From Naegleria gruberi (taxonomy: Eukaryota), in the NCBI GenBank assembly GCA_000004985.1, contig GG738853.1: DNA of 64,000 nucleotides. One strand, written 5' to 3'. A program made the position numbers and the translations under genes. Shown here piece by piece: positions 41,922 through 56,674 of this stretch. The notes beneath the pieces are model-generated. The model was given only the letters and a program-made list of their open reading frames with translations, searched no databases and was not told where the DNA came from. Each line of letters starts with the position of its first letter. The stretch's first letter is position 1.

Positions 41922-43679
41922 TTAATAATGTAATTGTTCAATTGCCTCAACCCATGAATCTCTCTCCTCTGCACTGTCTACACAACAGTTCAAATTTCTC
42001 GCTCCCGATATTACCACAAATGTGAAACCCTTCTTTGATTCATCTTCCACATTTCTGGCTCTTGTCTTTGGATCAATTACTACAATGCCCTTTGGTTTTT
42101 CGTTTGGTGCATCCTTGGAGAAATAAAAGAGGAATTCCTTAAATAACAAACAGTACCTCTTCTTCCATGATTTAAAGTTTGAGCCTTGCTTCTCCATATA
42201 GCCTGCCTTGACAGGTCTCATGTGTTTCAGTGTTTGTACAGTTGGGTTAGAACCAAATCGCATCTCTGCTAATGCAGCTCCAGCATTTTCACCACTATTC
42301 TTGAGCAATGTTTGGACATCATTCTTTGATTTTTCATGTTGTTCTTTCAGTGTCAGTAAGGCAGAGGCAAGTTGAAGATTCTCCTTTCTAGATTCATCCA
42401 ATTTTTCTTCCACTTCTTGTTTATCCTTTGTGTATTGCTCCGCCAAAGTTTGTCTTTCCTGTGCAAGTTTTTCTTCCATTTCTTGTCTTTCCTTTTCCAA
42501 AGTTTCAGCCATTTCTTGCTTTTCTTTTATCATGTTTTCTTCCATCTCTTTCTTTTCCTTCTCAAGCTTTTCTTTTTCCAAATTTAGAGATTTTCCCTCG
42601 GTAAATTGTTTCACCCTCTCAATTTCAATCGCCAATCGTTGTTTGAGGTCTTGAACCTGACTCTTGTAGGTATCCAACTCGGAGAGTGTACTATCGAGTT
42701 GAGATTTAGTTTCTTGTAATTGAGTTGTGGCTAAAATTTGAGATTGTTCCAAGTGGGAAACTCTTTCTTGAAGAGTGATGATCTTGGTTTGTTGATTTTC
42801 ATTCTCTCGCTGCAACTTATCATTTGTAGTCAATAGTGAAGTGTTATCGCTTTCTAGTTTTTCAATTTGTTTCCTCATGTGAATTTCTAATTTTTTGTAC
42901 ATGTCAGTTGTTTCAAAGTTGGAAACATTCTTTATGAGCGCCAAGAATGCTTTCATTTCAGGTCTTGTATTTACATCAGGTATTTCCTTTCCTAGAATAG
43001 CAATAGAATTTTCAAATATTTCATTCTTGAGAGTGTCGAGTGTCTCTTCTGACTGTTCCAAAACCAAATCGGAATGGTCACAACTATAAAAAATGGATGA
43101 AATCAGAGACATTATCAAGTGCTTCTCACCATAGAGAATATCTTCAGGCTCCAGCATGATACTCTTCTTGTTCAAATCCAATCTGTCTATTACTTCCAAA
43201 AGGGCTTGGATTTTATCACTATCTGTTGGAGCCTCAGAGATCATTGCCTCATCTTCATCTGTAAAACCCTTAGAGACTGTCTTTACAAGTTGGTGGAAGA
43301 GATAACCGTTTCTCCATTCCTCTCCAAGATTTGTTACCTTAATGTTTTTAGATTCCAACCTATTATTGACCCATCTGAGCAAGAGCGAGAGAGGTTGTTG
43401 ATTCATAAATTCCACAACTGTTTCATCTGCCCTCTTCAATGCAATTGCATCAAAGAAGTGAACAATATTCAGTGATTTAGTCAAATCCTCTCTAATCAAT
43501 TGCCACAAGATGGAATTTAATGCTGTTGGTCTCCCCTCGGCACAATCCTCTGGAGAAATGTTGACTACTACAATACCAAGACCCTTGGCATATCCTAGAA
43601 CCATTGTATGATTCAAAACTCGTTTAATCTTGTTCAATTCTTGTTCCTTCTTTGGTTTACATATTTTACTCCATTCCAC
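41922..43679 (-). CDS. coiled-coil protein with C-terminal PH domain
   Basis: 585-aa ORF. Long heptad-rich E/K/Q central region. C-terminal PH-like segment VKAGYMEKQGSNFKSWKKRYCLLFKEFLFYFS...SWVEAIEQ. Confidence 0.55.
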   Translation of the reverse strand: MEWSKICKPKKEQELNKIKRVLNHTMVLGYAKGLGIVVVNISPEDCAEGRPTALNSILWQLIREDLTKSLNIVHFFDAIALKRADETVVEFMNQQPLSLLLRWVNNRLESKNIKVTNLGEEWRNGYLFHQLVKTVSKGFTDEDEAMISEAPTDSDKIQALLEVIDRLDLNKKSIMLEPEDILYGEKHLIMSLISSIFYSCDHSDLVLEQSEETLDTLKNEIFENSIAILGKEIPDVNTRPEMKAFLALIKNVSNFETTDMYKKLEIHMRKQIEKLESDNTSLLTTNDKLQRENENQQTKIITLQERVSHLEQSQILATTQLQETKSQLDSTLSELDTYKSQVQDLKQRLAIEIERVKQFTEGKSLNLEKEKLEKEKKEMEENMIKEKQEMAETLEKERQEMEEKLAQERQTLAEQYTKDKQEVEEKLDESRKENLQLASALLTLKEQHEKSKNDVQTLLKNSGENAGAALAEMRFGSNPTVQTLKHMRPVKAGYMEKQGSNFKSWKKRYCLLFKEFLFYFSKDAPNEKPKGIVVIDPKTRARNVEDESKKGFTFVVISGARNLNCCVDSAEERDSWVEAIEQLHY

Positions 43680-45765: not shown

Positions 45766-48681
45766 TTGATCTTCCAAACCATCATAAAAAAAATGTTTAA
45801 AAAAGTCTTTGGAAATAATGGCAGTAAAAAACCAGAGCCAAACAACAATGTCATTGTTGAATCAGCCTCCTCCGACCAACCACCTCCATCATCACCAACC
45901 ACTCCCTCTGACGAACAACCAAGAAAACGAACACCCGTTGCGCCACAAATTCAAGAAGTGAGCGCCAAAGTAAATAATCAATATGTTCCCACCAAAAAAA
46001 ACACCGAAGAACAGTACAGTGAGAGTGATAAGGGAGTCTCTGAGAGAAATAAACAAGCATCGGATGTGGTTCGTGTTGAGAGAAATCAGGGTGATGAAGC
46101 GTTGAAGGCTGTTAGAGGATTGTCTGATGGTTTGGAAGATCAACAGGATGATGATTTGGATGGAAAGAAGAAGAAGAAAAAGAAGAAGGATAAAGAAAGT
46201 ATTGTTGTTAATACAACAGCTGGAAAGGGAAAGAAATCAACAATTTTGGGTGATTTGATGGGAATTGCTGCTAGAAAGGGATATCTGAGTAAGAGAGGTG
46301 GTTCTATCAAGACTTGGCACAAGAGATTTTTCATTGTTGTTGGTCATCGTCTCTATTATTACAAAGACGATAGTTCAAAGAATGAACCATTGGGTTCTGT
46401 TAAATGTAAAGGACCAGAAAGTGTTCAACCTGTTGCAGACACATCTCGTCCTAACTGTTTTAGAATTATCTCTGAAGAGAGAACATTATACTGTCAAGCT
46501 GAAAATGAAAATGACATGAATTCTTGGATGAATTTTTTGAAGGAACACACTTCAAAATTGAATTTACGTAAAGTGAAAGAACTTTCCAATCTTCAAGGAT
46601 ACATGACATTGTTGGATAATCAAACAAAGAAAAAGAAACGTGATGTTTATTGTTTGTGTATGGATGGTAAATTTTACATTTTGAATAATTTTGAGGATGT
46701 ATTACCGGATAGAATTGTAGAATTGGCTGGTGCCAGTGTAAGCAAAGTTAGTATTTCAGGTACATCAACAAATAATTTATTGGAAACACCTGCAACTCCT
46801 TCAAGTCCTAGAAAGATCAACAATACTGAAATTCAAGATTTTGCATTCCAAATCACAGAAAGTTTGCAAGCCGGATACATCCCAGAAGATGTTGCACCAG
46901 AAAAGGAAAAGTCTGGTAGATCTTCACGTTCCAGCTCTACTTTCCGTCAATCTAAAATGTTCAGTAGAAAATCAATGAAGGTCAATGATAGCAGTCAATC
47001 AGGAAGTGGACAAGGCGATACTACAGCTCGTTTGAGAAAGGGAACTCAATTTTTCCAAAACTTGATCACTAGTGTTGAAGGACTCAATCAAGTTACACTA
47101 ACATCAATTGATCCATTTTTGGCTGATGCTGAAATTTGGTGTGAAATGGTTCGTCACGAATCTGAATTGGCCTCAACCAGTTGGTATGTTCGTAACTCTC
47201 AAATGCGTGGTTGGATCAAGATTTTAATGAACAACGATGAAGTCAACAAGGCCATTCTTCAAGATAAGAAGAAACCAGAATCATTATATTGGATTGAAAG
47301 ATATGCCTGTCTTGTTCGTGGTACCTTGTTCTACTTTTCCGAAGAGAATTCTCCAACTCCAGATGGTAGTATTGTCCTCACTACAGGTTCTCGTCTCGTA
47401 ACCTCAGCTGTTCGTGAATTGAACTGTCCATATGCATTCAAGATTTCTTCACTTTCATCCAATTTTTATGTTTGCGTAAATTCGGATGATGAAAAGGATT
47501 GTTGGGTTGAAGAATTAAAGGAAGCAACCTACTCTCAAGCCAATCTCGACTATAACAAGTATGGTTGGTTGACCAAGCAAGGTGGTTCCTACAAGTCTTG
47601 GAAGGAACGTTTCTGTATCTTGAAGGGTACCAATTTGTACTATTTCTCTGATCCAAATGACTCTGAACCTAAGGGTAAAGTCAATCTTAAGGGTCAAATG
47701 ATTCGTCACCTTACTCCAGTCGAGGCCTACAATGAAGTTCAAAAGGATAACGTTATCAAGATTTACACTAGTCAACGTACTTGGTATTTCTTTGCAGATA
47801 CCATGCAAGAAGCTGTCGAATGGTCTATTGTATTGAGAAAGGCAGCCCTTCTCTATCGTGGTAGAACTTGGATTGTTGATGACAAGTTGGATGGCATGGA
47901 TGCAAAGAATTCCTTGAGATGTAAGAGTATTTCCCAAGCTGTTGCCAAAGCAGCAGAATTGGATCGTATCATTGTCTATTCTGGTGTATATTCTGAAACT
48001 GTAGTTGTAAACAAATCTGTAATTATAGAATGTGTAGGTGATGTGGTATTAAAGAAGGATTCTGGAGCTCCACTCATTGTGGATTGTATTGGTGCCGTAA
48101 AGGTCACTGGTATGGAATTAAGACAAGAAGGAGCTCCTAAAGAGCTCAGAGGTGACAAACATGCAGCTGAAGTTAAACGTGGTAACATTATGTTTGAACA
48201 TTGTCAAATTACCAGCAGAGATGGTAATGGTGTTGTCATTACCGAAGAAGGTGGTGTCACTATGAGCAAGTGTCGTGTATTCGACTGCAACCACTATGGC
48301 GTTTGGTTGAACGGAAGAGCTAGTGCCATTTTGGAAAATGTGGAAATTTGTGGATGTCAATGGGATGGTGTCATGCTCATGGCTAATACTGACTGTATCA
48401 TTCGTCAATCTGATATTTTCAACAATTCTTACAATGGTATTGCCGTCTCTTCAAAGGGTCGTCTCAATGTAGAAAATTGTAGAATAAGTGGAAACTTGTG
48501 GGATGGTATCTCTATCAATACTGACAAGGGTGCTGCCAGATTATTCGATAACTTTATTTTTGACAACCAAGGATTTGGTATTTATTATGCTAAAGATAAT
48601 GTCAGTGGTATCAACGTTGACAATGAAGTGTATTCCAATAAGAAGGGTCAAATCTACACTCTCAGTGGTAGACTTGAATAA
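45766..48681 (+). CDS. protein with three PH-like domains followed by right-handed parallel beta-helix (pectin-lyase-like) repeats
   Basis: 971-aa single-exon ORF. PH-like signatures KGYLSKRGGSIKTWHKRFFIV...SWMNFL, a central PH segment near 47150-47550, and KYGWLTKQGGSYKSWKERFCILKGTNLYYF...EWSIVL. The C-terminal 330 aa carry repeated ~22-aa G/N-rich beta-helix units. Confidence 0.6.
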   Translation: MIFQTIIKKMFKKVFGNNGSKKPEPNNNVIVESASSDQPPPSSPTTPSDEQPRKRTPVAPQIQEVSAKVNNQYVPTKKNTEEQYSESDKGVSERNKQASDVVRVERNQGDEALKAVRGLSDGLEDQQDDDLDGKKKKKKKKDKESIVVNTTAGKGKKSTILGDLMGIAARKGYLSKRGGSIKTWHKRFFIVVGHRLYYYKDDSSKNEPLGSVKCKGPESVQPVADTSRPNCFRIISEERTLYCQAENENDMNSWMNFLKEHTSKLNLRKVKELSNLQGYMTLLDNQTKKKKRDVYCLCMDGKFYILNNFEDVLPDRIVELAGASVSKVSISGTSTNNLLETPATPSSPRKINNTEIQDFAFQITESLQAGYIPEDVAPEKEKSGRSSRSSSTFRQSKMFSRKSMKVNDSSQSGSGQGDTTARLRKGTQFFQNLITSVEGLNQVTLTSIDPFLADAEIWCEMVRHESELASTSWYVRNSQMRGWIKILMNNDEVNKAILQDKKKPESLYWIERYACLVRGTLFYFSEENSPTPDGSIVLTTGSRLVTSAVRELNCPYAFKISSLSSNFYVCVNSDDEKDCWVEELKEATYSQANLDYNKYGWLTKQGGSYKSWKERFCILKGTNLYYFSDPNDSEPKGKVNLKGQMIRHLTPVEAYNEVQKDNVIKIYTSQRTWYFFADTMQEAVEWSIVLRKAALLYRGRTWIVDDKLDGMDAKNSLRCKSISQAVAKAAELDRIIVYSGVYSETVVVNKSVIIECVGDVVLKKDSGAPLIVDCIGAVKVTGMELRQEGAPKELRGDKHAAEVKRGNIMFEHCQITSRDGNGVVITEEGGVTMSKCRVFDCNHYGVWLNGRASAILENVEICGCQWDGVMLMANTDCIIRQSDIFNNSYNGIAVSSKGRLNVENCRISGNLWDGISINTDKGAARLFDNFIFDNQGFGIYYAKDNVSGINVDNEVYSNKKGQIYTLSGRLE

Positions 48682-48807: not shown

Positions 48808-50540
48808 TTACAAATAAAGGAAGGACAAGATGATCAAAACTAAAACAATTAAAACGTTTGGAAGACGAACCAATTGAGCATCATTGACATTTCTTGAAAT
48901 ATTAGCATCAGGAGTAGCAGTGGAATTTGTGTTGGAGTTTGAATTAGAATTGGAAGAAACTGCTGGTTTTGGTGAAGAAGTAACTGCGCTAGGTACTTCA
49001 ACCTTTAACATTTGAACTGAAACAGTTGATTCCTGATTGACTCCACTAATTGCTGAAATACTTCCCCAACATGAAGAAGATGGCCAAGTAAATACGAAAC
49101 TTTGTCCATTATTCAAATTTCCACTATCAATATTTGAAAGATTCCTACAAGCCAAATTCAAAAACAATCTAAACTGTCCTCCTCCAGTAGTAAGAGCTGT
49201 AACATTATACAATTGACCAGCAACTGTTTTAGCCCATGAAACTGGTGAATATCCATTTCCATTTGCATTATTCTGAACTGTTTTCACAGTTCTACTGGAA
49301 AAGATTACTGCTTGTCTCCATGTATCGAAATATCCAGCAGGTCCTCCAGAACTTACAGTCCAAAGACCTCTCATGGAAAGTAAATTTTGATTTCTATTAA
49401 AATCAATCACCTTATCCTCACCATTCAAATATCCTGAACAAGATTTGAGAGGTCTGAGAGCAGCTCTAATGAGTTGCAATTCATATGCTGCTTGATTACT
49501 CCAACCACCTGGATGCAATGTGTAATTACTGCCAATTTCAACGAAAATGCCATAAGGTGTACCAGTATTACGATCAGTGACATAACCTCCATAAGTTTTC
49601 AAAGTTTCTGCAACTTTTCTCAATTTTGGAATGGTAAGTTGAGCAGTGACATTGAAAGTGGAAGGAAGCATCAATAAACTACCTTCAGGAATAGTTCCAT
49701 AATTGCTCTGATAATCAGTATCAGATGCAGTGGCTGGCCAAACATATGGTGGATTATTAGACAAACCATTGTGAGTCATGGATACAGTCAATGCATGTCT
49801 ATATTGAGTATCGCCATCATCTACTTCATGTTTTCTAATCAATCCTGCAGAACTCACAACTCCTGTGGCTCTGGCTCCTTGATAGAATTGAGCTGGATTT
49901 CCCCATCCAGAACCATCGAGAGCTGTCCATGAATAGAGAGTAGTACACCAGGTGCCATTAATTTTGACCATTTGCCAGAATGAGTGAATAACATTTGAGA
50001 TTGGATCATAAATTTCACAGTGACCTATTTTCCAAAAATATCAAATTTTGACACACATGTCATTTTAAAAAACTAATTACATTGACAAGTATGCAAACAA
50101 ACTTACCATCACTTCCACTAGCTGGTAAAGTATTAGCTGGCCATCTTGGAATTGTAATATTTGGAGCAAATCCACCAATATCTGGCACGCCAATTCCCTT
50201 ACTAGATGAACCATAAACTGTGAGTGGAGAATCAGTTTTTGAGGCAACGAAAACTCCAGTAGAATAAATTCCTTCACCAACTGTTGGATAAAAGTTCATT
50301 GTTGATAGTGGAATAGTTTTGGTATCGTCTAAAACTGGGTTGACTGGACGACAATTCCAAGGAGAGCTTGCAGAGAATGGTCTGTAAATGCTTCCAAAGG
50401 GATAATCAGATTGGAGGCATGTTACATGTTGAGAAAACATGTCTGTTAAAAACAATGTCAATTGTCAAAGTGCATGAAAACTTACAAATTACTGACAGCA
50501 AAAGCATGACAGATAATTTAACTGTGAATAGGTTATTCAT
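48808..50540 (-). CDS. secreted or GPI-anchored surface protein, 3 exons (50540-50486, 50442-50107, 50024-48808)
   Basis: An 18-aa signal-peptide micro-exon MNNLFTVKLSVMLLLSVI. A 43-nt GTAAGT...AG intron, then a second exon. An 82-nt GTAAGT...AG intron, then a large exon. C-terminal Ser/Asn-rich linker and hydrophobic tail LPNVLIVLVLIILSFLYL. Confidence 0.5.
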
Positions 50541-53052: not shown

Positions 53053-54381
53053 ATGCATCCCTTTGAAGGTTACGCAAAATTATGTGGGCAAGATGTTGAA
53101 TATTACTTACAAAAGCTAAATGTCTCTCTCGGAAGAACACGGGTGCCTGATCCACAAGTTATAGATCCTAAATCTTTGGCAGAAGAACAGACAGTTGATG
53201 CTAATCAAAGTTTAAATTCCACATTATCTACTACAGGTCATTTACAACCTTCTATTGAAACACTTCAAAGAGTGCTCTGGGAACAAGATGTAGATATTCC
53301 TCTAGGTACCAACAAGAATATTTCACGTCTCCATGCCAAAATAATTTATAATGCTATAACAAAATTCTTTGAATTACACGTGATATCAAAGAATGGTGTA
53401 AAAGTTAATGGAATTTACTATCCTCCACAACCACACTCTCAACCAATCCCACTTCATAACGGTTATGAATTACAATTAGGTGATTGTTTCTTGACCTTTA
53501 TGCTTCCAATTAAAAAGATAACCCAAAGCGAAATGTATCAAATGGTAAACCTGAAAAAGAGAGATATGCAAAATGCAGATAGAGCTGACAGAGACAATTC
53601 TTCAACAAATGATCAAGATAGACAAGGAAATGATATGATGATGACTGACGAGAGTCACACAAGTACTATGAATGATGAAGTTTCTGATGCTCTTTCAAAA
53701 AACTTTCTTAGAGAAATTGAACCAATGGACGACCCCAATGGAGAGTATGGTTCTTTTTTTCTAAATGAAGGAAAGAAGAATATTTTTTTTAGGAACCTCG
53801 GAAATGGTCTAGCTGGGGGAACACCAATTAGTAGTGAACAAGCAAATGTACTTGCAAGATCATTGACAACAAGTATTGGCCCTTCTCTCACTGCAGCAGT
53901 AACACAAACTTTATCTGGAATTTATTTAGAAAATCACTCTGATTTTATCAAATCATTTCTTTCTAAATCAAATGCACCAAGTCCTCATACGGAAATGGTT
54001 CTGGAGTATCTTTACAACTCTCCTGATATTGAAAATGCAGAATCACCTGAGGCAGTTAGTATGTTAGCGCGATTAATGACAGATATGGATAATAATATCG
54101 GATCAAACTTTTCCAACATGTCCAAGAATACTAAAAAGCTGTTGCATATAGTACTGAATGCTGCTTTGGCAACAGAACAACAAGAGTTAGCCTCTCTACT
54201 TTTCAAGACAAAGCAAGAAAACGAAATTACTGTAAGAAATGGTATTGCTACTTTTGTGCTTGATTGGAACGAAAAGAAGCAGAAACAACAAGATATGGAA
54301 GCTGCTGTAAATACAAGTGCTACAACACCTCTTGTAGATCCACAAGCCTCCTCTCTTTCATCTCATCCAACAGTGAGATAG
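53053..54381 (+). CDS. FHA-domain protein
   Basis: N-terminal FHA signature: ...LGRTRV...ISRLHAKIIYNA...HVISKNGVKVNG. Ser/Thr-rich C-terminus. Confidence 0.55.
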   Translation: MHPFEGYAKLCGQDVEYYLQKLNVSLGRTRVPDPQVIDPKSLAEEQTVDANQSLNSTLSTTGHLQPSIETLQRVLWEQDVDIPLGTNKNISRLHAKIIYNAITKFFELHVISKNGVKVNGIYYPPQPHSQPIPLHNGYELQLGDCFLTFMLPIKKITQSEMYQMVNLKKRDMQNADRADRDNSSTNDQDRQGNDMMMTDESHTSTMNDEVSDALSKNFLREIEPMDDPNGEYGSFFLNEGKKNIFFRNLGNGLAGGTPISSEQANVLARSLTTSIGPSLTAAVTQTLSGIYLENHSDFIKSFLSKSNAPSPHTEMVLEYLYNSPDIENAESPEAVSMLARLMTDMDNNIGSNFSNMSKNTKKLLHIVLNAALATEQQELASLLFKTKQENEITVRNGIATFVLDWNEKKQKQQDMEAAVNTSATTPLVDPQASSLSSHPTVR

Positions 54382-54478: not shown

Positions 54479-56674
54479 ATGGCCACCACAACATCATCAT
54501 TAACTTCTCTAATTCCTCCTCCAATATTATCATCCTCTCAACAACAACAAACACAATTGACGGATGTACCTCCATCATCGCAGAGTACAACACAATTACC
54601 ACCCGATGATGATTTGGATGCTTTGGACGAATTTGATGAATTGATGGCTTTCGTCAATGCTCCTATGGATACAAATTCTGAACAATGGCGTTTATTGAAT
54701 CAAAATTCAAATGTTCCACCAGTGACAACAACAACTTCCTCTATTCCTCCTAATGATACAACAGTAAACAGTAGTGCTACTACATCAAATGTAACTGCAC
54801 CAACTACTGAAAAGAAGAAAAAGACTACAAAAAAGAAGAAGGATGAAAAGGAAACCACCACTAAAAAGAAGGAAACAAAGAAGAAGAAGGATGATAAAAA
54901 AGAGGACAAGAAGGAAGATAAAAAGGAAGAAAAGAAAGAAGAAAAGGAAAAGAAGAAGAAAAAGAAGAAGGAGGAGCCATCTACTCCAAAGGATACTGTC
55001 AAACAAGAAGAGCCTGCTGTTTCCACACCAAAAGATCCCAATCTTAAGAAACCTGATATTTCATATTCTACAATGATTGCTCATGCACTCATGTCAGCAG
55101 CTAATAACATGATGCCTCTCAAATCAATTTATTCTTGGATTTCCACAACTTATCCATTCTACGATCTTGCAGAGACTGGTTGGAAGAGTAGTGTGAGACA
55201 TAATTTGAGCACAAATTCTAAATATTTCCGAAGAGTATCACCTGAAGAATGGAGACAATTAACTGGAGAAGAGAAAAAGTCAAAATCTAAAAAACAAGGC
55301 TCCTCAGATAAGAAGATGGCATTCTCTGTCTATGCACTTGTGACTGAGCATTGTGATGAAGTTTTGGGAACAAAGAAAGCCAAATCAGACAAGAAGGCAT
55401 CCTCTTCTACTTCTTCTTTAACAACGCTTAGTAATGCTACTACAGCACCAGTTAGTTCATCATCTACATTACCTGCCAATAGTACTCTTTCTTCTTCTAC
55501 TAATGCAACCACTGACCAAACAGCAATAACCTCAGAAGTGAAAGAAGTTAAGGAAAAAGAAACCAAGAAGAAGAAATCATCCACCAGTAGTGCAACAAAG
55601 AAGAGAAGTAGAAAAAAGTCCGAATCTACAGACTTGGATTTAAATGATGGCTTGTTGAACTTTGATGAAATTGCACCATCAATGAGTTTGGATAAACCAG
55701 AAAAGAAAAAGAAGAAGAAGACTTCTAAAAAATCAGAAACTCCTACAGCTAGTACAACTCCAGCTGCTGAATCTTCAACACCTGTGACTCAAACCAATAA
55801 CAACAATAATACCAATGTAACTACTCCCCAATTGTCACATTCCAGTTCCAATCAAAACTTCCAACACAGTACTCCAACTAATCAAATTTCTATCACCCAA
55901 AATATTATGCCAAATACATCTCAACCATTGGCTCCAAAACAACCATTCCCTTTGTCAAATCAAATTCCTAATCAAATTCCACCAAACCAAATGCCAAATC
56001 AAATGCCAAACCAAATGCCAAATCAGATGCCAAATCAAATACCTAATCAAATCCCTCGTCAAAGTACTAATAACTTGTTGGAAATGTTTGTTCAGAATGG
56101 AATGCTAAATGCCCAAGAACCTTCTTTTCTTAAAATTTTATTGGATGGAAATGGAGATTCATCAGCCAACAATCCATTATCAGCGCTCATGGGTCAAGGA
56201 GGTCAGAATATGAATCCAAACCAAGGACTCAATACAGCACCACTTGGTAATATGGTTGATTCACAGGGAAAGCAAATTGACCTTATTAATTTACTTTCAA
56301 TGGTAACTGGAATGCCTCAACAACAAAACATGTCTCAATCTGGTATGTCTCAACCACCAATGCACCAAAACTTTTTAGATCCAAATAACAGACTTGTTAC
56401 ACAAGGAAGACCTCCTAATTGGCCACCTGGTGCAGGCTTACCAAATCAACTTCAAGGAGGAAGGCCTTCTATGGGATCAGTTGTTGGTATGCAAAATCCT
56501 GGTCAATTCCCTGTACAAAATCCAAATATGAATCCATTAGGTCATCCAGGATTTAATCAATTCCCATTTCCCATGATGAACTACTCTCAAACACTTCTCA
56601 ACTTTGATCCATCATCAATACTGCAGCAACAAGGTAATGGTGGTATTCCTCCCAATAATAACAATAATAAATAG
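54479..56674 (+). CDS. forkhead (FOX) DNA-binding-domain transcription factor with K/E-rich and Q/N/P-rich low-complexity regions
   Basis: Forkhead domain KPDISYSTMIAHALMSAANNMMPLKSIYSWISTTYPFYDLAETGWKSSVRHNLSTNSKYFRRV. The same frame is open upstream to 54377. Confidence 0.7.
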   Translation: MATTTSSLTSLIPPPILSSSQQQQTQLTDVPPSSQSTTQLPPDDDLDALDEFDELMAFVNAPMDTNSEQWRLLNQNSNVPPVTTTTSSIPPNDTTVNSSATTSNVTAPTTEKKKKTTKKKKDEKETTTKKKETKKKKDDKKEDKKEDKKEEKKEEKEKKKKKKKEEPSTPKDTVKQEEPAVSTPKDPNLKKPDISYSTMIAHALMSAANNMMPLKSIYSWISTTYPFYDLAETGWKSSVRHNLSTNSKYFRRVSPEEWRQLTGEEKKSKSKKQGSSDKKMAFSVYALVTEHCDEVLGTKKAKSDKKASSSTSSLTTLSNATTAPVSSSSTLPANSTLSSSTNATTDQTAITSEVKEVKEKETKKKKSSTSSATKKRSRKKSESTDLDLNDGLLNFDEIAPSMSLDKPEKKKKKKTSKKSETPTASTTPAAESSTPVTQTNNNNNTNVTTPQLSHSSSNQNFQHSTPTNQISITQNIMPNTSQPLAPKQPFPLSNQIPNQIPPNQMPNQMPNQMPNQMPNQIPNQIPRQSTNNLLEMFVQNGMLNAQEPSFLKILLDGNGDSSANNPLSALMGQGGQNMNPNQGLNTAPLGNMVDSQGKQIDLINLLSMVTGMPQQQNMSQSGMSQPPMHQNFLDPNNRLVTQGRPPNWPPGAGLPNQLQGGRPSMGSVVGMQNPGQFPVQNPNMNPLGHPGFNQFPFPMMNYSQTLLNFDPSSILQQQGNGGIPPNNNNNK

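What the first reader, a model, noticed from the sequence alone, without database searches (positions are those of the whole stretch)
45766..48681. Unusual domain fusion: three PH-like domains plus a right-handed beta-helix (pectin-lyase-like) C-terminal region
PH domains are intracellular lipid- and protein-binding modules. Parallel beta-helix repeats are typical of secreted carbohydrate-active or adhesin proteins. A cytosolic PH-PH-PH-beta-helix protein (no signal peptide, single exon, 971 aa) has no well-known counterpart and could be a lineage-specific signalling scaffold or enzyme.
Basis: partly seen in the sequence, partly recalled or inferred. Interest (0 to 1): 0.5.

Follow-up and report, generated by a model that had tools for sequence, protein, structure and literature searches.

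The report
Four PH domains plus cytosolic beta-helix
The gene is real and encodes a Naegleria gruberi cytosolic protein with four lipid-binding-type PH domains and one beta-helix domain related to that of human FBXO11; it belongs to a small, uncharacterised protist family, which is unusual but not a new kind of system.

Summary
The ORF 45766-48681 (+) exists. The real CDS starts at the ATG at 45793 and gives 962 aa, 100 % identical to Naegleria gruberi NAEGRDRAFT_57266 (UniProt D2V687, "Uncharacterized protein AM14").

- **Location.** There is no signal peptide and no TM segment.
- **Correction 1.** There are four PH-like domains. The second is split by a disordered insert.
- **Correction 2.** The fusion is not unique. 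About a dozen 50 %-identity clusters carry 2-4 PH domains plus the same beta-helix: Naegleria, Willaertia, Heterolobosea sp. BB2 and uncultured eukaryotes.
- **Correction 3.** Intracellular beta-helices have a known counterpart. This one is sequence-homologous to the CASH domains of an FBXO11-type protein, and to bacterial TIR- and Hsp70-like-fused (and more distantly kinase-fused) beta-helices.
- **Catalytic motif.** The alginate-epimerase motif YG(I/F)DPH(D/E) is reduced to YG. A family-specific stripe (Tyr, Trp-Asp, Tyr-Asn, Trp-Asp) sits in its place.

Best reading: a phosphoinositide-recruited adaptor whose beta-helix is a ligand-binding platform. The function is inferred, not shown.

The parts
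45793..48681 (+). Complete CDS (962 aa + stop) of N. gruberi NAEGRDRAFT_57266 / UniProt D2V687 'AM14'.
   Evidence: ORF. 100 % identity to P0172, with names. Orthologue starts.
45793..46242 (+). Disordered, Lys/Ser-rich N-terminal region (aa 1-150). It contains a short conserved motif, GDEALKAV.GLSDGLE.
   Evidence: pLDDT 22-29. No Pfam hit. Motif conserved in Naegleria, Willaertia and P0143.
46264..46560 (+). PH1 (aa 158-256). Net charge +6. The beta1-beta2 segment is GYLSKRGGSIKTWHKRFF, a near-canonical 3-phosphoinositide-type motif with His in place of Lys/Arg.
   Evidence: PF00169 75.5 bits. Best PDB sequence matches are DAPP1, TAPP1 and GRP1. Strands plus C-terminal helix. Charge.
46576..47178 (+). 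PH2 (aa 262-462). A degenerate PH domain split by a disordered low-complexity insert (aa ~358-440, nt 46864-47112). Pfam does not detect it.
   Evidence: It aligns with the Pfam-detectable second PH domain of P0014 and P0049. Family PH2 profile vs PH4 profile: hhalign probability 97.9 %, E 4.8e-13. Naegleria/Willaertia rows alone are weak: 33 %, E 4.5e-4. AF2 gives six strands (267-355) plus helix 441-460.
47188..47538 (+). PH3 (aa 466-582). It has a helical/basic insertion in the beta1-beta2 loop, and the basic motif is degenerate (WIERY).
   Evidence: PF00169 44.2 bits. Secondary structure. Alignment.
47542..47853 (+). PH4 (aa 584-687). The family-invariant segment GWLxKxGGxxKxWKxR is a canonical K-Xn-[K/R]-X-R motif. 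Its C-terminal helix (EW.IVLRKAALL) runs directly into the beta-helix.
   Evidence: PF00169 70.0 bits. Invariant columns. Best PDB match is the myosin-X PH domain. Net charge +4.
47854..48678 (+). C-terminal right-handed parallel beta-helix (aa 688-962). An N-terminal cap (SISQAVAKAAELDRIIVYSGVYSE) is followed by about 9 coils of ~23 residues.
48295..48585 (+). Family-specific conserved stripe on successive coils: Y835-G836, W857-D858-G859, Y880-N881-G882, W903-D904-G905, G927-F-G929-I-Y931.
   Evidence: These residues are invariant or >=90 % conserved across 10 family members that are only 33-45 % identical overall. The first element aligns with the AlgG catalytic VYGIDPHD. The same positions are Ser/Ala/Gly-type in the bacterial TIR- and Hsp70-fused relatives and in the FBXO11-type protein. 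Surface exposure could not be checked because no coordinates are returned.

Best explanation
The gene encodes a soluble cytosolic protein of N. gruberi. It has a disordered N-terminus, four tandem PH domains and one C-terminal CASH-type right-handed beta-helix.

Proposed mechanism, with steps marked as shown or inferred:
1. PH4 has a fully canonical basic beta1-beta2 motif and PH1 a near-canonical one. Together they bind acidic phosphoinositides, most likely 3-phosphorylated species, and recruit the protein to the cytosolic face of a membrane (inferred from motifs and closest solved relatives).
2. PH2 and PH3 are degenerate in Naegleria and Willaertia. They act as spacers or protein-binding modules (inferred).
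3. The PH4 C-terminal helix leads through a highly conserved junction into the beta-helix, so the beta-helix is held close to the membrane-binding module (conservation shown; rigidity inferred).
4. The beta-helix works as an elongated ligand-binding platform rather than as an alginate-epimerase-type enzyme. The Asp-Pro-His-Asp/Glu part of that catalytic motif is missing (shown). The domain is homologous to the substrate-recognition CASH domains of FBXO11-type proteins and to beta-helices fused to signalling or effector domains (shown).
5. A family-specific, in-register stripe of Tyr, Trp-Asp, Tyr-Asn and Trp-Asp on four consecutive coils is the likely ligand-contact surface (conservation shown; role inferred). 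The ligand, peptide or glycan-like, is unknown.
For: - **Architecture.**
- **Cytosolic location.**: no signal peptide or TM segment.
- **Lipid-binding motifs.** PH4 has invariant G, W, L, K, G, G, K, W, K and R residues across 11 family members. Its best solved relatives are phosphoinositide-binding PH domains: myosin-X, DAPP1, TAPP1 and GRP1/cytohesin-3. PH1 and PH4 are basic (+6, +4), whereas PH2 and PH3 are not.
- **Fold.**
- **Homology to an FBXO11-architecture protein (P0082, Trichuris muris).** phmmer E 8.2e-23 against 1.84 billion representatives. F-box + Beta_helix + zf-UBR confirmed. BLASTP 5e-16. FBXO11 CASH domains are right-handed beta-helices in an intracellular ubiquitin-ligase substrate receptor (PMC8825234; abstract of PMC13394945).
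- **Partner census of 60 close relatives.** Pkinase 18, TIR 4, CHAT 2, caspase 2, PP2C 1, DnaJ_C 1, F-box/zf-UBR 1.
- **Loss of the epimerase motif.**: the family's QYGIyls (HYGVWLN in the window) aligns with AlgG VYGIDPHD.
- **Family-specific stripe.**
- **Conservation of the whole architecture** in several eukaryotes.
Against: - No binding or localisation data exist. Lipid specificity cannot be read reliably from a sequence motif, and many PH domains do not bind lipids.
- PH1 has His where the motif wants Lys/Arg.
- The best structural matches of the beta-helix are all carbohydrate-active enzymes or phage tailspikes.
- The conserved Trp/Tyr + Asp/Asn stripe has a composition typical of sugar-binding or catalytic grooves, so an enzymatic role is not excluded.
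- The relatives are not uniformly intracellular. 3 of 13 regex-detected kinase fusions have a TM helix between the kinase and the beta-helix, and about 13 of 60 relatives have signal- or TM-like segments.
- I could not inspect model coordinates, so exposure of the stripe and the PH4/beta-helix contact are untested.
Confidence: 0.5

Rival explanations
1. The beta-helix is an enzyme (glycan or polyanion lyase, epimerase, hydrolase or esterase). The PH array delivers it to a membrane, where it acts on a cytosolic-face or cytosolic substrate. The Tyr, Trp-Asp, Tyr-Asn, Trp-Asp stripe would be the active-site groove.
For: - The family profile reaches AlgG by sequence (E 2.5e-4), and the invariant Tyr-Gly aligns with the Tyr-Gly of the catalytic YGIDPHD turn.
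- The stripe is invariant within the family but absent from non-catalytic-looking relatives.
Against: - The Asp-Pro-His-Asp part of the epimerase/lyase motif is absent.
- No carbohydrate-active-enzyme Pfam family is hit by the window protein at E <= 1. The only beta-helix-region hits are Beta_helix and NosD; the Fe-ADH and DNA_pol_viral_N hits at E ~0.07 lie outside the beta-helix.
- Sequence identity to every solved enzyme is 9-19 %.
- No polysaccharide substrate is known in the cytosol.
- Most conservation is periodic and structural.
Confidence: 0.22
2. The PH domains are mainly protein-binding modules rather than lipid-binding ones (for example for small GTPases, actin regulators or phospho-proteins). 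The protein would then be a soluble scaffold in the amoeboid cytoskeleton or trafficking machinery, independent of phosphoinositides.
For: - Two of the four PH domains have lost the basic motif in Naegleria.
- PH domains in general often lack lipid specificity; only about half of the human PH proteins tested bound phosphoinositides (abstract of PMC8282632).
- The UniProt gene name AM14 probably refers to the 'amoeboid motility' phylogenetic-profile set of the N. gruberi genome paper. This is my recollection; the paper was not readable.
Against: PH4's K-Xn-K-X-R motif is invariant across the family, and PH1 and PH4 are strongly basic. Their best solved relatives are bona fide phosphoinositide binders.
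Confidence: 0.2
3. The fusion is an artefact (two neighbouring genes merged by an ORF finder), or the protein is really secreted or surface-exposed like classical beta-helix adhesins.
For: None beyond the general association of beta-helices with secreted proteins. Some relatives do carry signal or TM segments.
Against: - The ORF is one continuous 2.9-kb reading frame.
- The PH4/beta-helix junction is the most conserved part of the protein.
- The same architecture is found in N. lovaniensis, N. fowleri, W. magna, transcripts of Heterolobosea sp. BB2 and several environmental eukaryotic contigs.
- There is no signal peptide or TM segment.
Confidence: 0.02

Closest known systems
FBXO11 / FBXO10 (DRE-1) CASH-domain F-box proteins
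   Same: Both are intracellular eukaryotic proteins with a PF13229-type right-handed beta-helix. Sequence homology is detectable, including the N-terminal cap: phmmer E 8e-23 and BLASTP 5e-16 at 24 % identity to the Trichuris FBXO11-type protein P0082. In FBXO11 the beta-helix region belongs to a substrate receptor (PMC8825234; abstract of PMC13394945).
   Different: The window protein has no F-box and no zf-UBR. It has one beta-helix unit instead of three tandem CASH domains, and four N-terminal PH domains instead. The Tyr, Trp-Asp, Tyr-Asn, Trp-Asp stripe is absent from the FBXO11-type sequence.
Bacterial single beta-helix domains fused to TIR (P0145) or Hsp70-like ATPase (P0139)
   Same: These are the closest non-PH relatives: 31 % identity, collinear over 234-255 residues including the cap, BLASTP 6e-29 and 2e-28. 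Each has one beta-helix unit at the C-terminus of an intracellular-type N-terminal domain.
   Different: They sit on prokaryote-like contigs. They have different N-terminal modules and lack the family-specific stripe.
Mannuronan C5-epimerases / alginate lyases (AlgG, AlgE4, PL31 lyase 6kfn)
   Different: They are secreted or periplasmic enzymes. The D-P-H-(D/E) catalytic residues are replaced in the family (W-L-N-G in the window). Identity is 14-16 %.
Tandem-PH phosphoinositide effectors (DAPP1, TAPP1, cytohesin/GRP1, myosin-X PH domains)
   Same: PH1 and PH4 match these best among solved structures (E 8e-13 to 3e-9). They share the K-Xn-[K/R]-X-R motif.
   Different: None of these proteins carries a beta-helix. 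The window protein has four PH units, two of them degenerate.
NosD (periplasmic copper-binding beta-helix of the NosDFY ABC system)
   Different: The hit overlaps the generic Beta_helix match. NosD is periplasmic and part of an ABC transporter complex, and no such context exists here.

Membership tests
PH domain (Pfam PF00169) | HMM score above the curated gathering threshold | tested here: met
   Three separate domains score 75.5, 44.2 and 70.0 bits against a threshold of 25.1. A fourth (PH2) is not detected by Pfam. It is supported by the family profile-profile match (probability 97.9 %, E 4.8e-13) and by alignment to Pfam-positive orthologous domains.
PH domain (Pfam PF00169) | Seven-stranded beta-sandwich closed by a C-terminal alpha-helix carrying a conserved Trp | tested here: met
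   The AF2 secondary structure shows four strand blocks, each followed by a long helix (H239-254, H441-460, H565-580, H671-685). The Trp is visible in NSWMNFL, EIWCEMV, DCWVEEL and VEWSIVL (sequence). Only secondary structure was available, not coordinates.
3-phosphoinositide-binding PH subclass | Basic beta1-beta2 motif K-Xn-[K/R]-X-R-hydrophobic-hydrophobic | tested here: inconclusive
   Met in PH4 (K..GGSYKSWKERFC, invariant in the family). Nearly met in PH1 (HKRFF). Not met in PH2 or PH3 of Naegleria. The motif alone does not prove specificity.
3-phosphoinositide-binding PH subclass | Measured binding to PI(3,4,5)P3 / PI(3,4)P2 | not testable with these tools
   Needs lipid-binding assays.
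Right-handed parallel beta-helix (Pfam PF13229 Beta_helix; pectin-lyase-like fold; CASH/PbH1 repeats) | HMM score above threshold, predicted fold and ~22-23-residue coil repeat | tested here: met
Mannuronan C5-epimerase / alginate lyase (AlgG, AlgE type) | Catalytic YG(F/I)DPH(D/E) motif | tested here: not met
   The profile alignment puts the family's QYGIyls (HYGVWLNG in the window) opposite AlgG VYGIDPHD. Only Tyr-Gly is retained. That the DPH(D/E) residues are catalytic is from my knowledge of the AlgE4 and AlgG literature.
Mannuronan C5-epimerase / alginate lyase (AlgG, AlgE type) | Export to the periplasm or exterior | tested here: not met
   No signal peptide or TM segment.
FBXO11-type SCF substrate receptor | F-box domain | tested here: not met
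   No F-box hit at E <= 1. P0082, used as a positive control, has F-box-like at 5.9e-16.
FBXO11-type SCF substrate receptor | Three tandem CASH beta-helix units followed by a zf-UBR | tested here: not met
   The window protein has a single beta-helix unit and no zf-UBR.
FBXO11-type SCF substrate receptor | CASH beta-helix homologous in sequence | tested here: met
   phmmer E 8.2e-23 and BLASTP 5e-16. This shows domain homology only, not family membership.
Pectate lyase / pectinesterase / polygalacturonase enzyme families | Match to the specific enzyme HMMs (PF00544, PF01095, PF00295 and others) | tested here: not met
   None is listed for the window protein at E <= 1. Only weak N-terminal-cap matches to Pectinesterase occur in some relatives.
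PH(n)-beta-helix family (unnamed; NAEGRDRAFT_57266 / AM14 orthologues) | 2-4 N-terminal PH domains, the conserved PH4-helix/beta-helix junction (EW.IVLR.AALL..G.T..VD) and the Y / WD / YN / WD stripe | tested here: met
   Alignments A1, A2 and A6. Pfam scans of members.

The most novel reading that the evidence does not exclude
The PH(n)-beta-helix proteins would be a previously unrecognised class of phosphoinositide effector in heterolobosean and other uncultured protists. The family-specific Trp/Tyr-Asp/Asn groove of the membrane-tethered beta-helix would bind, or chemically modify, a cytosolic glycan-like or other extended polymer at sites of pseudopod, phagocytic-cup or macropinosome formation. 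That would fit the 'AM14' label, if the label really marks the amoeboid-motility gene set.
Probability: 0.12. Interest if true: 0.6.

Novelty: new variant of a known kind. Interest (0 to 1): 0.3.

Why it matters
If the reading is right, this family shows a CASH-type beta-helix, best known in eukaryotes from the FBXO11 ubiquitin-ligase receptor, re-used as the output module of a phosphoinositide-recruited adaptor.

It offers a defined and experimentally tractable surface, the conserved Tyr, Trp-Asp, Tyr-Asn, Trp-Asp stripe, for finding its ligand.

The pathogen N. fowleri has an orthologue (CAG4717497.1). I did not test whether animals lack the PH + beta-helix architecture: no animal PH + beta-helix protein was among the close relatives I examined (24 of the top 150 scanned individually plus 60 in a census), and the only animal hit was an FBXO11-type protein.

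The practical weight is modest. This is an uncharacterised but already deposited protein, both domains are well known, and no function has been demonstrated.

Tried and rejected
1. Full-length word-indexed search. It was saturated by low-complexity and PH words and returned only 4 close orthologues. The beta-helix-only word search returned 1 hit. The exhaustive phmmer search was needed to see the family.
2. phmmer of the single beta-helix sequence against PDB sequences found nothing meaningful. Only the family profile reached phage Andhra gp15 and AlgG.
3. The AFDB50 fold library was unavailable, so I could not look for predicted structures with the same architecture.
4. I tried to confirm what 'AM14' means. 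The N. gruberi genome paper is not held, and four searches or reads did not contain the AM list. The 'amoeboid motility set' meaning remains my recollection only.
5. I looked for direct evidence that Naegleria makes PI(3,4,5)P3. The papers found only place PI3K and PTEN in the ancestral eukaryotic core and give nothing Naegleria-specific.
6. I first took 'all close beta-helix relatives are intracellular' as support, then checked it and rejected the strong form. Some kinase fusions have a TM helix before the beta-helix, and some relatives have signal peptides.
7. Secreted adhesin or enzyme, and gene-fusion artefact: rejected.
8. Neighbouring genes give no functional hint. This is a eukaryotic genome with no operon logic. 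The neighbours are a CH+PH protein, an FHA protein, a Forkhead protein and ORFs without Pfam hits.
Full report
**1. What is in the sequence**

A continuous ORF lies at 45766..48681 on the + strand (971 aa from a mechanical TTG). The biological start is the ATG at 45793, preceded by an A-run. This gives a 962-aa product that is 100 % identical to N. gruberi NAEGRDRAFT_57266 (EFC47793.1 / XP_002680537.1; UniProt D2V687, 'Uncharacterized protein AM14'). The window is therefore Naegleria gruberi DNA, about 32-38 % G+C.

Orthologues exist in three other sources, and the N. lovaniensis and Willaertia magna proteins begin at the same Met:
- N. lovaniensis: 79-81 % identity.
- N. fowleri: CAG4717497.1, 969 aa.
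- Willaertia magna: 59-62 % identity.

**2. Domain check**

- **Whole protein.** Pfam gives PH 2.4e-51 (3 stretches), Beta_helix 4.2e-29 and NosD 6e-13.
- **Segments.** The PH domains score 75.5, 44.2 and 70.0 bits against a gathering score of 25.1. The C-terminal 272 residues score 109.7 bits for Beta_helix against 25.9.
- **Location.** The N-terminus is hydrophilic, and no 19-residue window exceeds a Kyte-Doolittle mean of 1.31. There is no signal peptide or TM helix.

**3. A fourth PH domain**

An alignment with more distant family members shows the ancestral plan PH1-PH2-PH3-PH4-beta-helix. In P0011, P0014 and P0049, Pfam sees four PH domains.

In Naegleria and Willaertia the second unit (aa 262-462) has lost its signature Trp-Lys. 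It is also interrupted by a roughly 80-residue low-complexity insert. Three lines of evidence bear on it:
- The family PH2 profile matches the PH4 profile at 97.9 % probability (E 4.8e-13).
- The Naegleria/Willaertia rows alone give only weak support (E 4.5e-4, probability 33 %).
- The full-length AF2 model (mean pLDDT 64, dragged down by aa 1-150 and the insert) shows four strand blocks, each closed by a long helix, followed by the beta-helix.

**4. The beta-helix**

AF2 on aa 682-962 with a shallow alignment gave pLDDT 90.2 and pTM 0.89, an all-beta coil.

- **Sequence vs PDB.** The single sequence finds nothing. A 10-member family profile reaches phage Andhra gp15 (E 2e-8) and AlgG (E 2.5e-4).
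- **Catalytic turn.** In the AlgG alignment the family's invariant (Q/H)YG(I/V) lies opposite VYGIDPHD, but D-P-H-D is W-L-N-G in the window protein. The epimerase/lyase catalytic residues are absent.
- **Coil register.** The coils show a family-specific, in-register stripe that is >=90 % conserved: Y835-G, W857-D-G, Y880-N-G, W903-D-G, G927-F-G-I-Y.
- **Outgroup comparison.** The same positions are Ser/Ala/Gly-type in the nearest outgroups.

**5. Relatives**

An exhaustive phmmer search with the beta-helix against 1.84 billion representatives gave 2,939 hits at E <= 1e-3.

- **Same family.** Of the ten closest single-stretch hits I scanned, eight are the same family. Six of these carry 2-4 PH domains. 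Two are fragments that lack a detectable PH domain; one of them (P0013) still ends with the PH4 helix.
  - One is from Heterolobosea sp. BB2 transcripts.
  - Two lie on eukaryotic environmental contigs, with BTB, PTPLA, DEAD, PEPCK, C2H2 and Rad52 neighbours.
- **Next closest.** Bacterial-looking TIR-beta-helix and Hsp70-like-beta-helix proteins, at 31 % identity and collinear including the cap.
- **Multi-beta-helix proteins.** Further out are proteins fused to Ser/Thr kinases or AAA ATPases.
- **Census of 60 further relatives.** Pkinase 18, TIR 4, CHAT 2, caspase 2, PP2C 1, DnaJ_C 1, and one F-box + zf-UBR protein.
  - The F-box + zf-UBR protein is Trichuris muris A0A5S6QY51, with the FBXO11 architecture.
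  - It aligns with the window domain at BLASTP 5e-16.
- **Annotation.** IMG itself labels two of the top hits 'F-box protein 11'.
- **Known role of the FBXO11 domains.** They are right-handed beta-helices in an intracellular substrate receptor (PMC8825234).
- **Caveat, checked.** This beta-helix subtype is not exclusively intracellular. 3 of 13 regex-detected kinase fusions have a TM helix before it, and about 13 of 60 relatives have signal- or TM-like segments.

**6. How it most likely works**

Shown:
- The architecture.
- The cytosolic character.
- The invariant PH4 K-Xn-K-X-R motif and the basic PH1 and PH4.
- The best solved relatives, which are phosphoinositide binders.
- The very conserved PH4-helix/beta-helix junction.
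- The loss of the epimerase catalytic residues.
- The homology to CASH-type recognition domains.
- The family-specific stripe.

Inferred:
- PH4 and PH1 recruit the protein to phosphoinositide-rich membrane.
- The beta-helix then presents a ligand-binding groove there.
- The ligand is unknown.

The enzyme alternative stays alive at about 0.2. The stripe's Trp/Tyr + Asp/Asn composition and its position at the homologue of the AlgG/AlgE4 active-site turn are what one would expect of a sugar-binding or catalytic groove.

**7. Comparison with the known, and novelty**

Both domain types are textbook. Intracellular CASH beta-helices are known from FBXO11 and FBXO10. SHCBP1 is a further example from my memory that I did not test.

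I found no description of a PH + beta-helix protein. The family has no name beyond 'PH domain-containing protein', 'hypothetical protein' or 'AM14'.

I therefore rate it a new variant of a known kind. It is a conserved but uncharacterised domain architecture, found so far in heteroloboseans and some uncultured eukaryotes. It is not a one-off and not a new principle.

Interest is 0.3. It is worth an experimental look because it has a clean, testable surface and an orthologue in N. fowleri, but a specialist would not find it startling.

Noticed in passing
window 41925-43679 (-): The gene two positions upstream encodes a calponin-homology (CH) domain plus a C-terminal PH domain protein. This is another cytoskeleton/membrane-type adaptor.
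   Followed up: no
window 53053-54381 (+) and 54479-56674 (+): Adjacent ORFs carry an FHA domain (9.9e-07) and a Forkhead DNA-binding domain (1.1e-21) respectively.
   Followed up: no
window 48808-49971 (-), possibly continuing to 50060-50461 (-): A 387-aa ORF with no Pfam hit has an S/N-rich stalk and a C-terminal hydrophobic tail (LPNVLIVLVLIILSFLYL). This suggests a GPI- or TM-anchored surface protein. A second ORF just upstream on the same strand may be another exon.
   Followed up: no
window 45793-46242 (aa ~95-125 of the protein): Inside the otherwise disordered N-terminus lies a short motif (…GDEALKAVRGLSDGLEDQ…). It is conserved in Naegleria, Willaertia and the environmental member P0143, and is possibly a linear binding motif.
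   Followed up: no
P0005 (Willaertia magna ABK040_015956, 366 aa): This is a degenerate partial duplicate of the end of PH4 plus the beta-helix. It has an internal deletion of about two coils and many substitutions, and is likely a decaying paralogue or pseudogene.
   Followed up: partly
P0160 / P0175 vs P0174 (N. fowleri orthologue): Automated gene calls split the N. fowleri gene. P0160 ends '...ADTMQVSRMLLSFNIF', which looks like read-through into an intron inside the PH4 C-terminal helix. N. gruberi has no such intron.
   Followed up: no
L004 5001-6254 and L005 2478-4358: The closest non-PH relatives of the beta-helix are on prokaryote-like contigs. One is a TIR-beta-helix protein next to NotI-type restriction, methyltransferase and PD-(D/E)XK genes, a defence-island-like setting. 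The other is an Hsp70-like-ATPase-beta-helix protein near VWA and dynamin-like GTPase genes.
   Followed up: partly
L002 4181-6697: In the environmental PH-beta-helix gene P0143, the beta-helix continues in a separately called 101-aa ORF (6392-6697). This implies an intron or frameshift in that contig.
   Followed up: no
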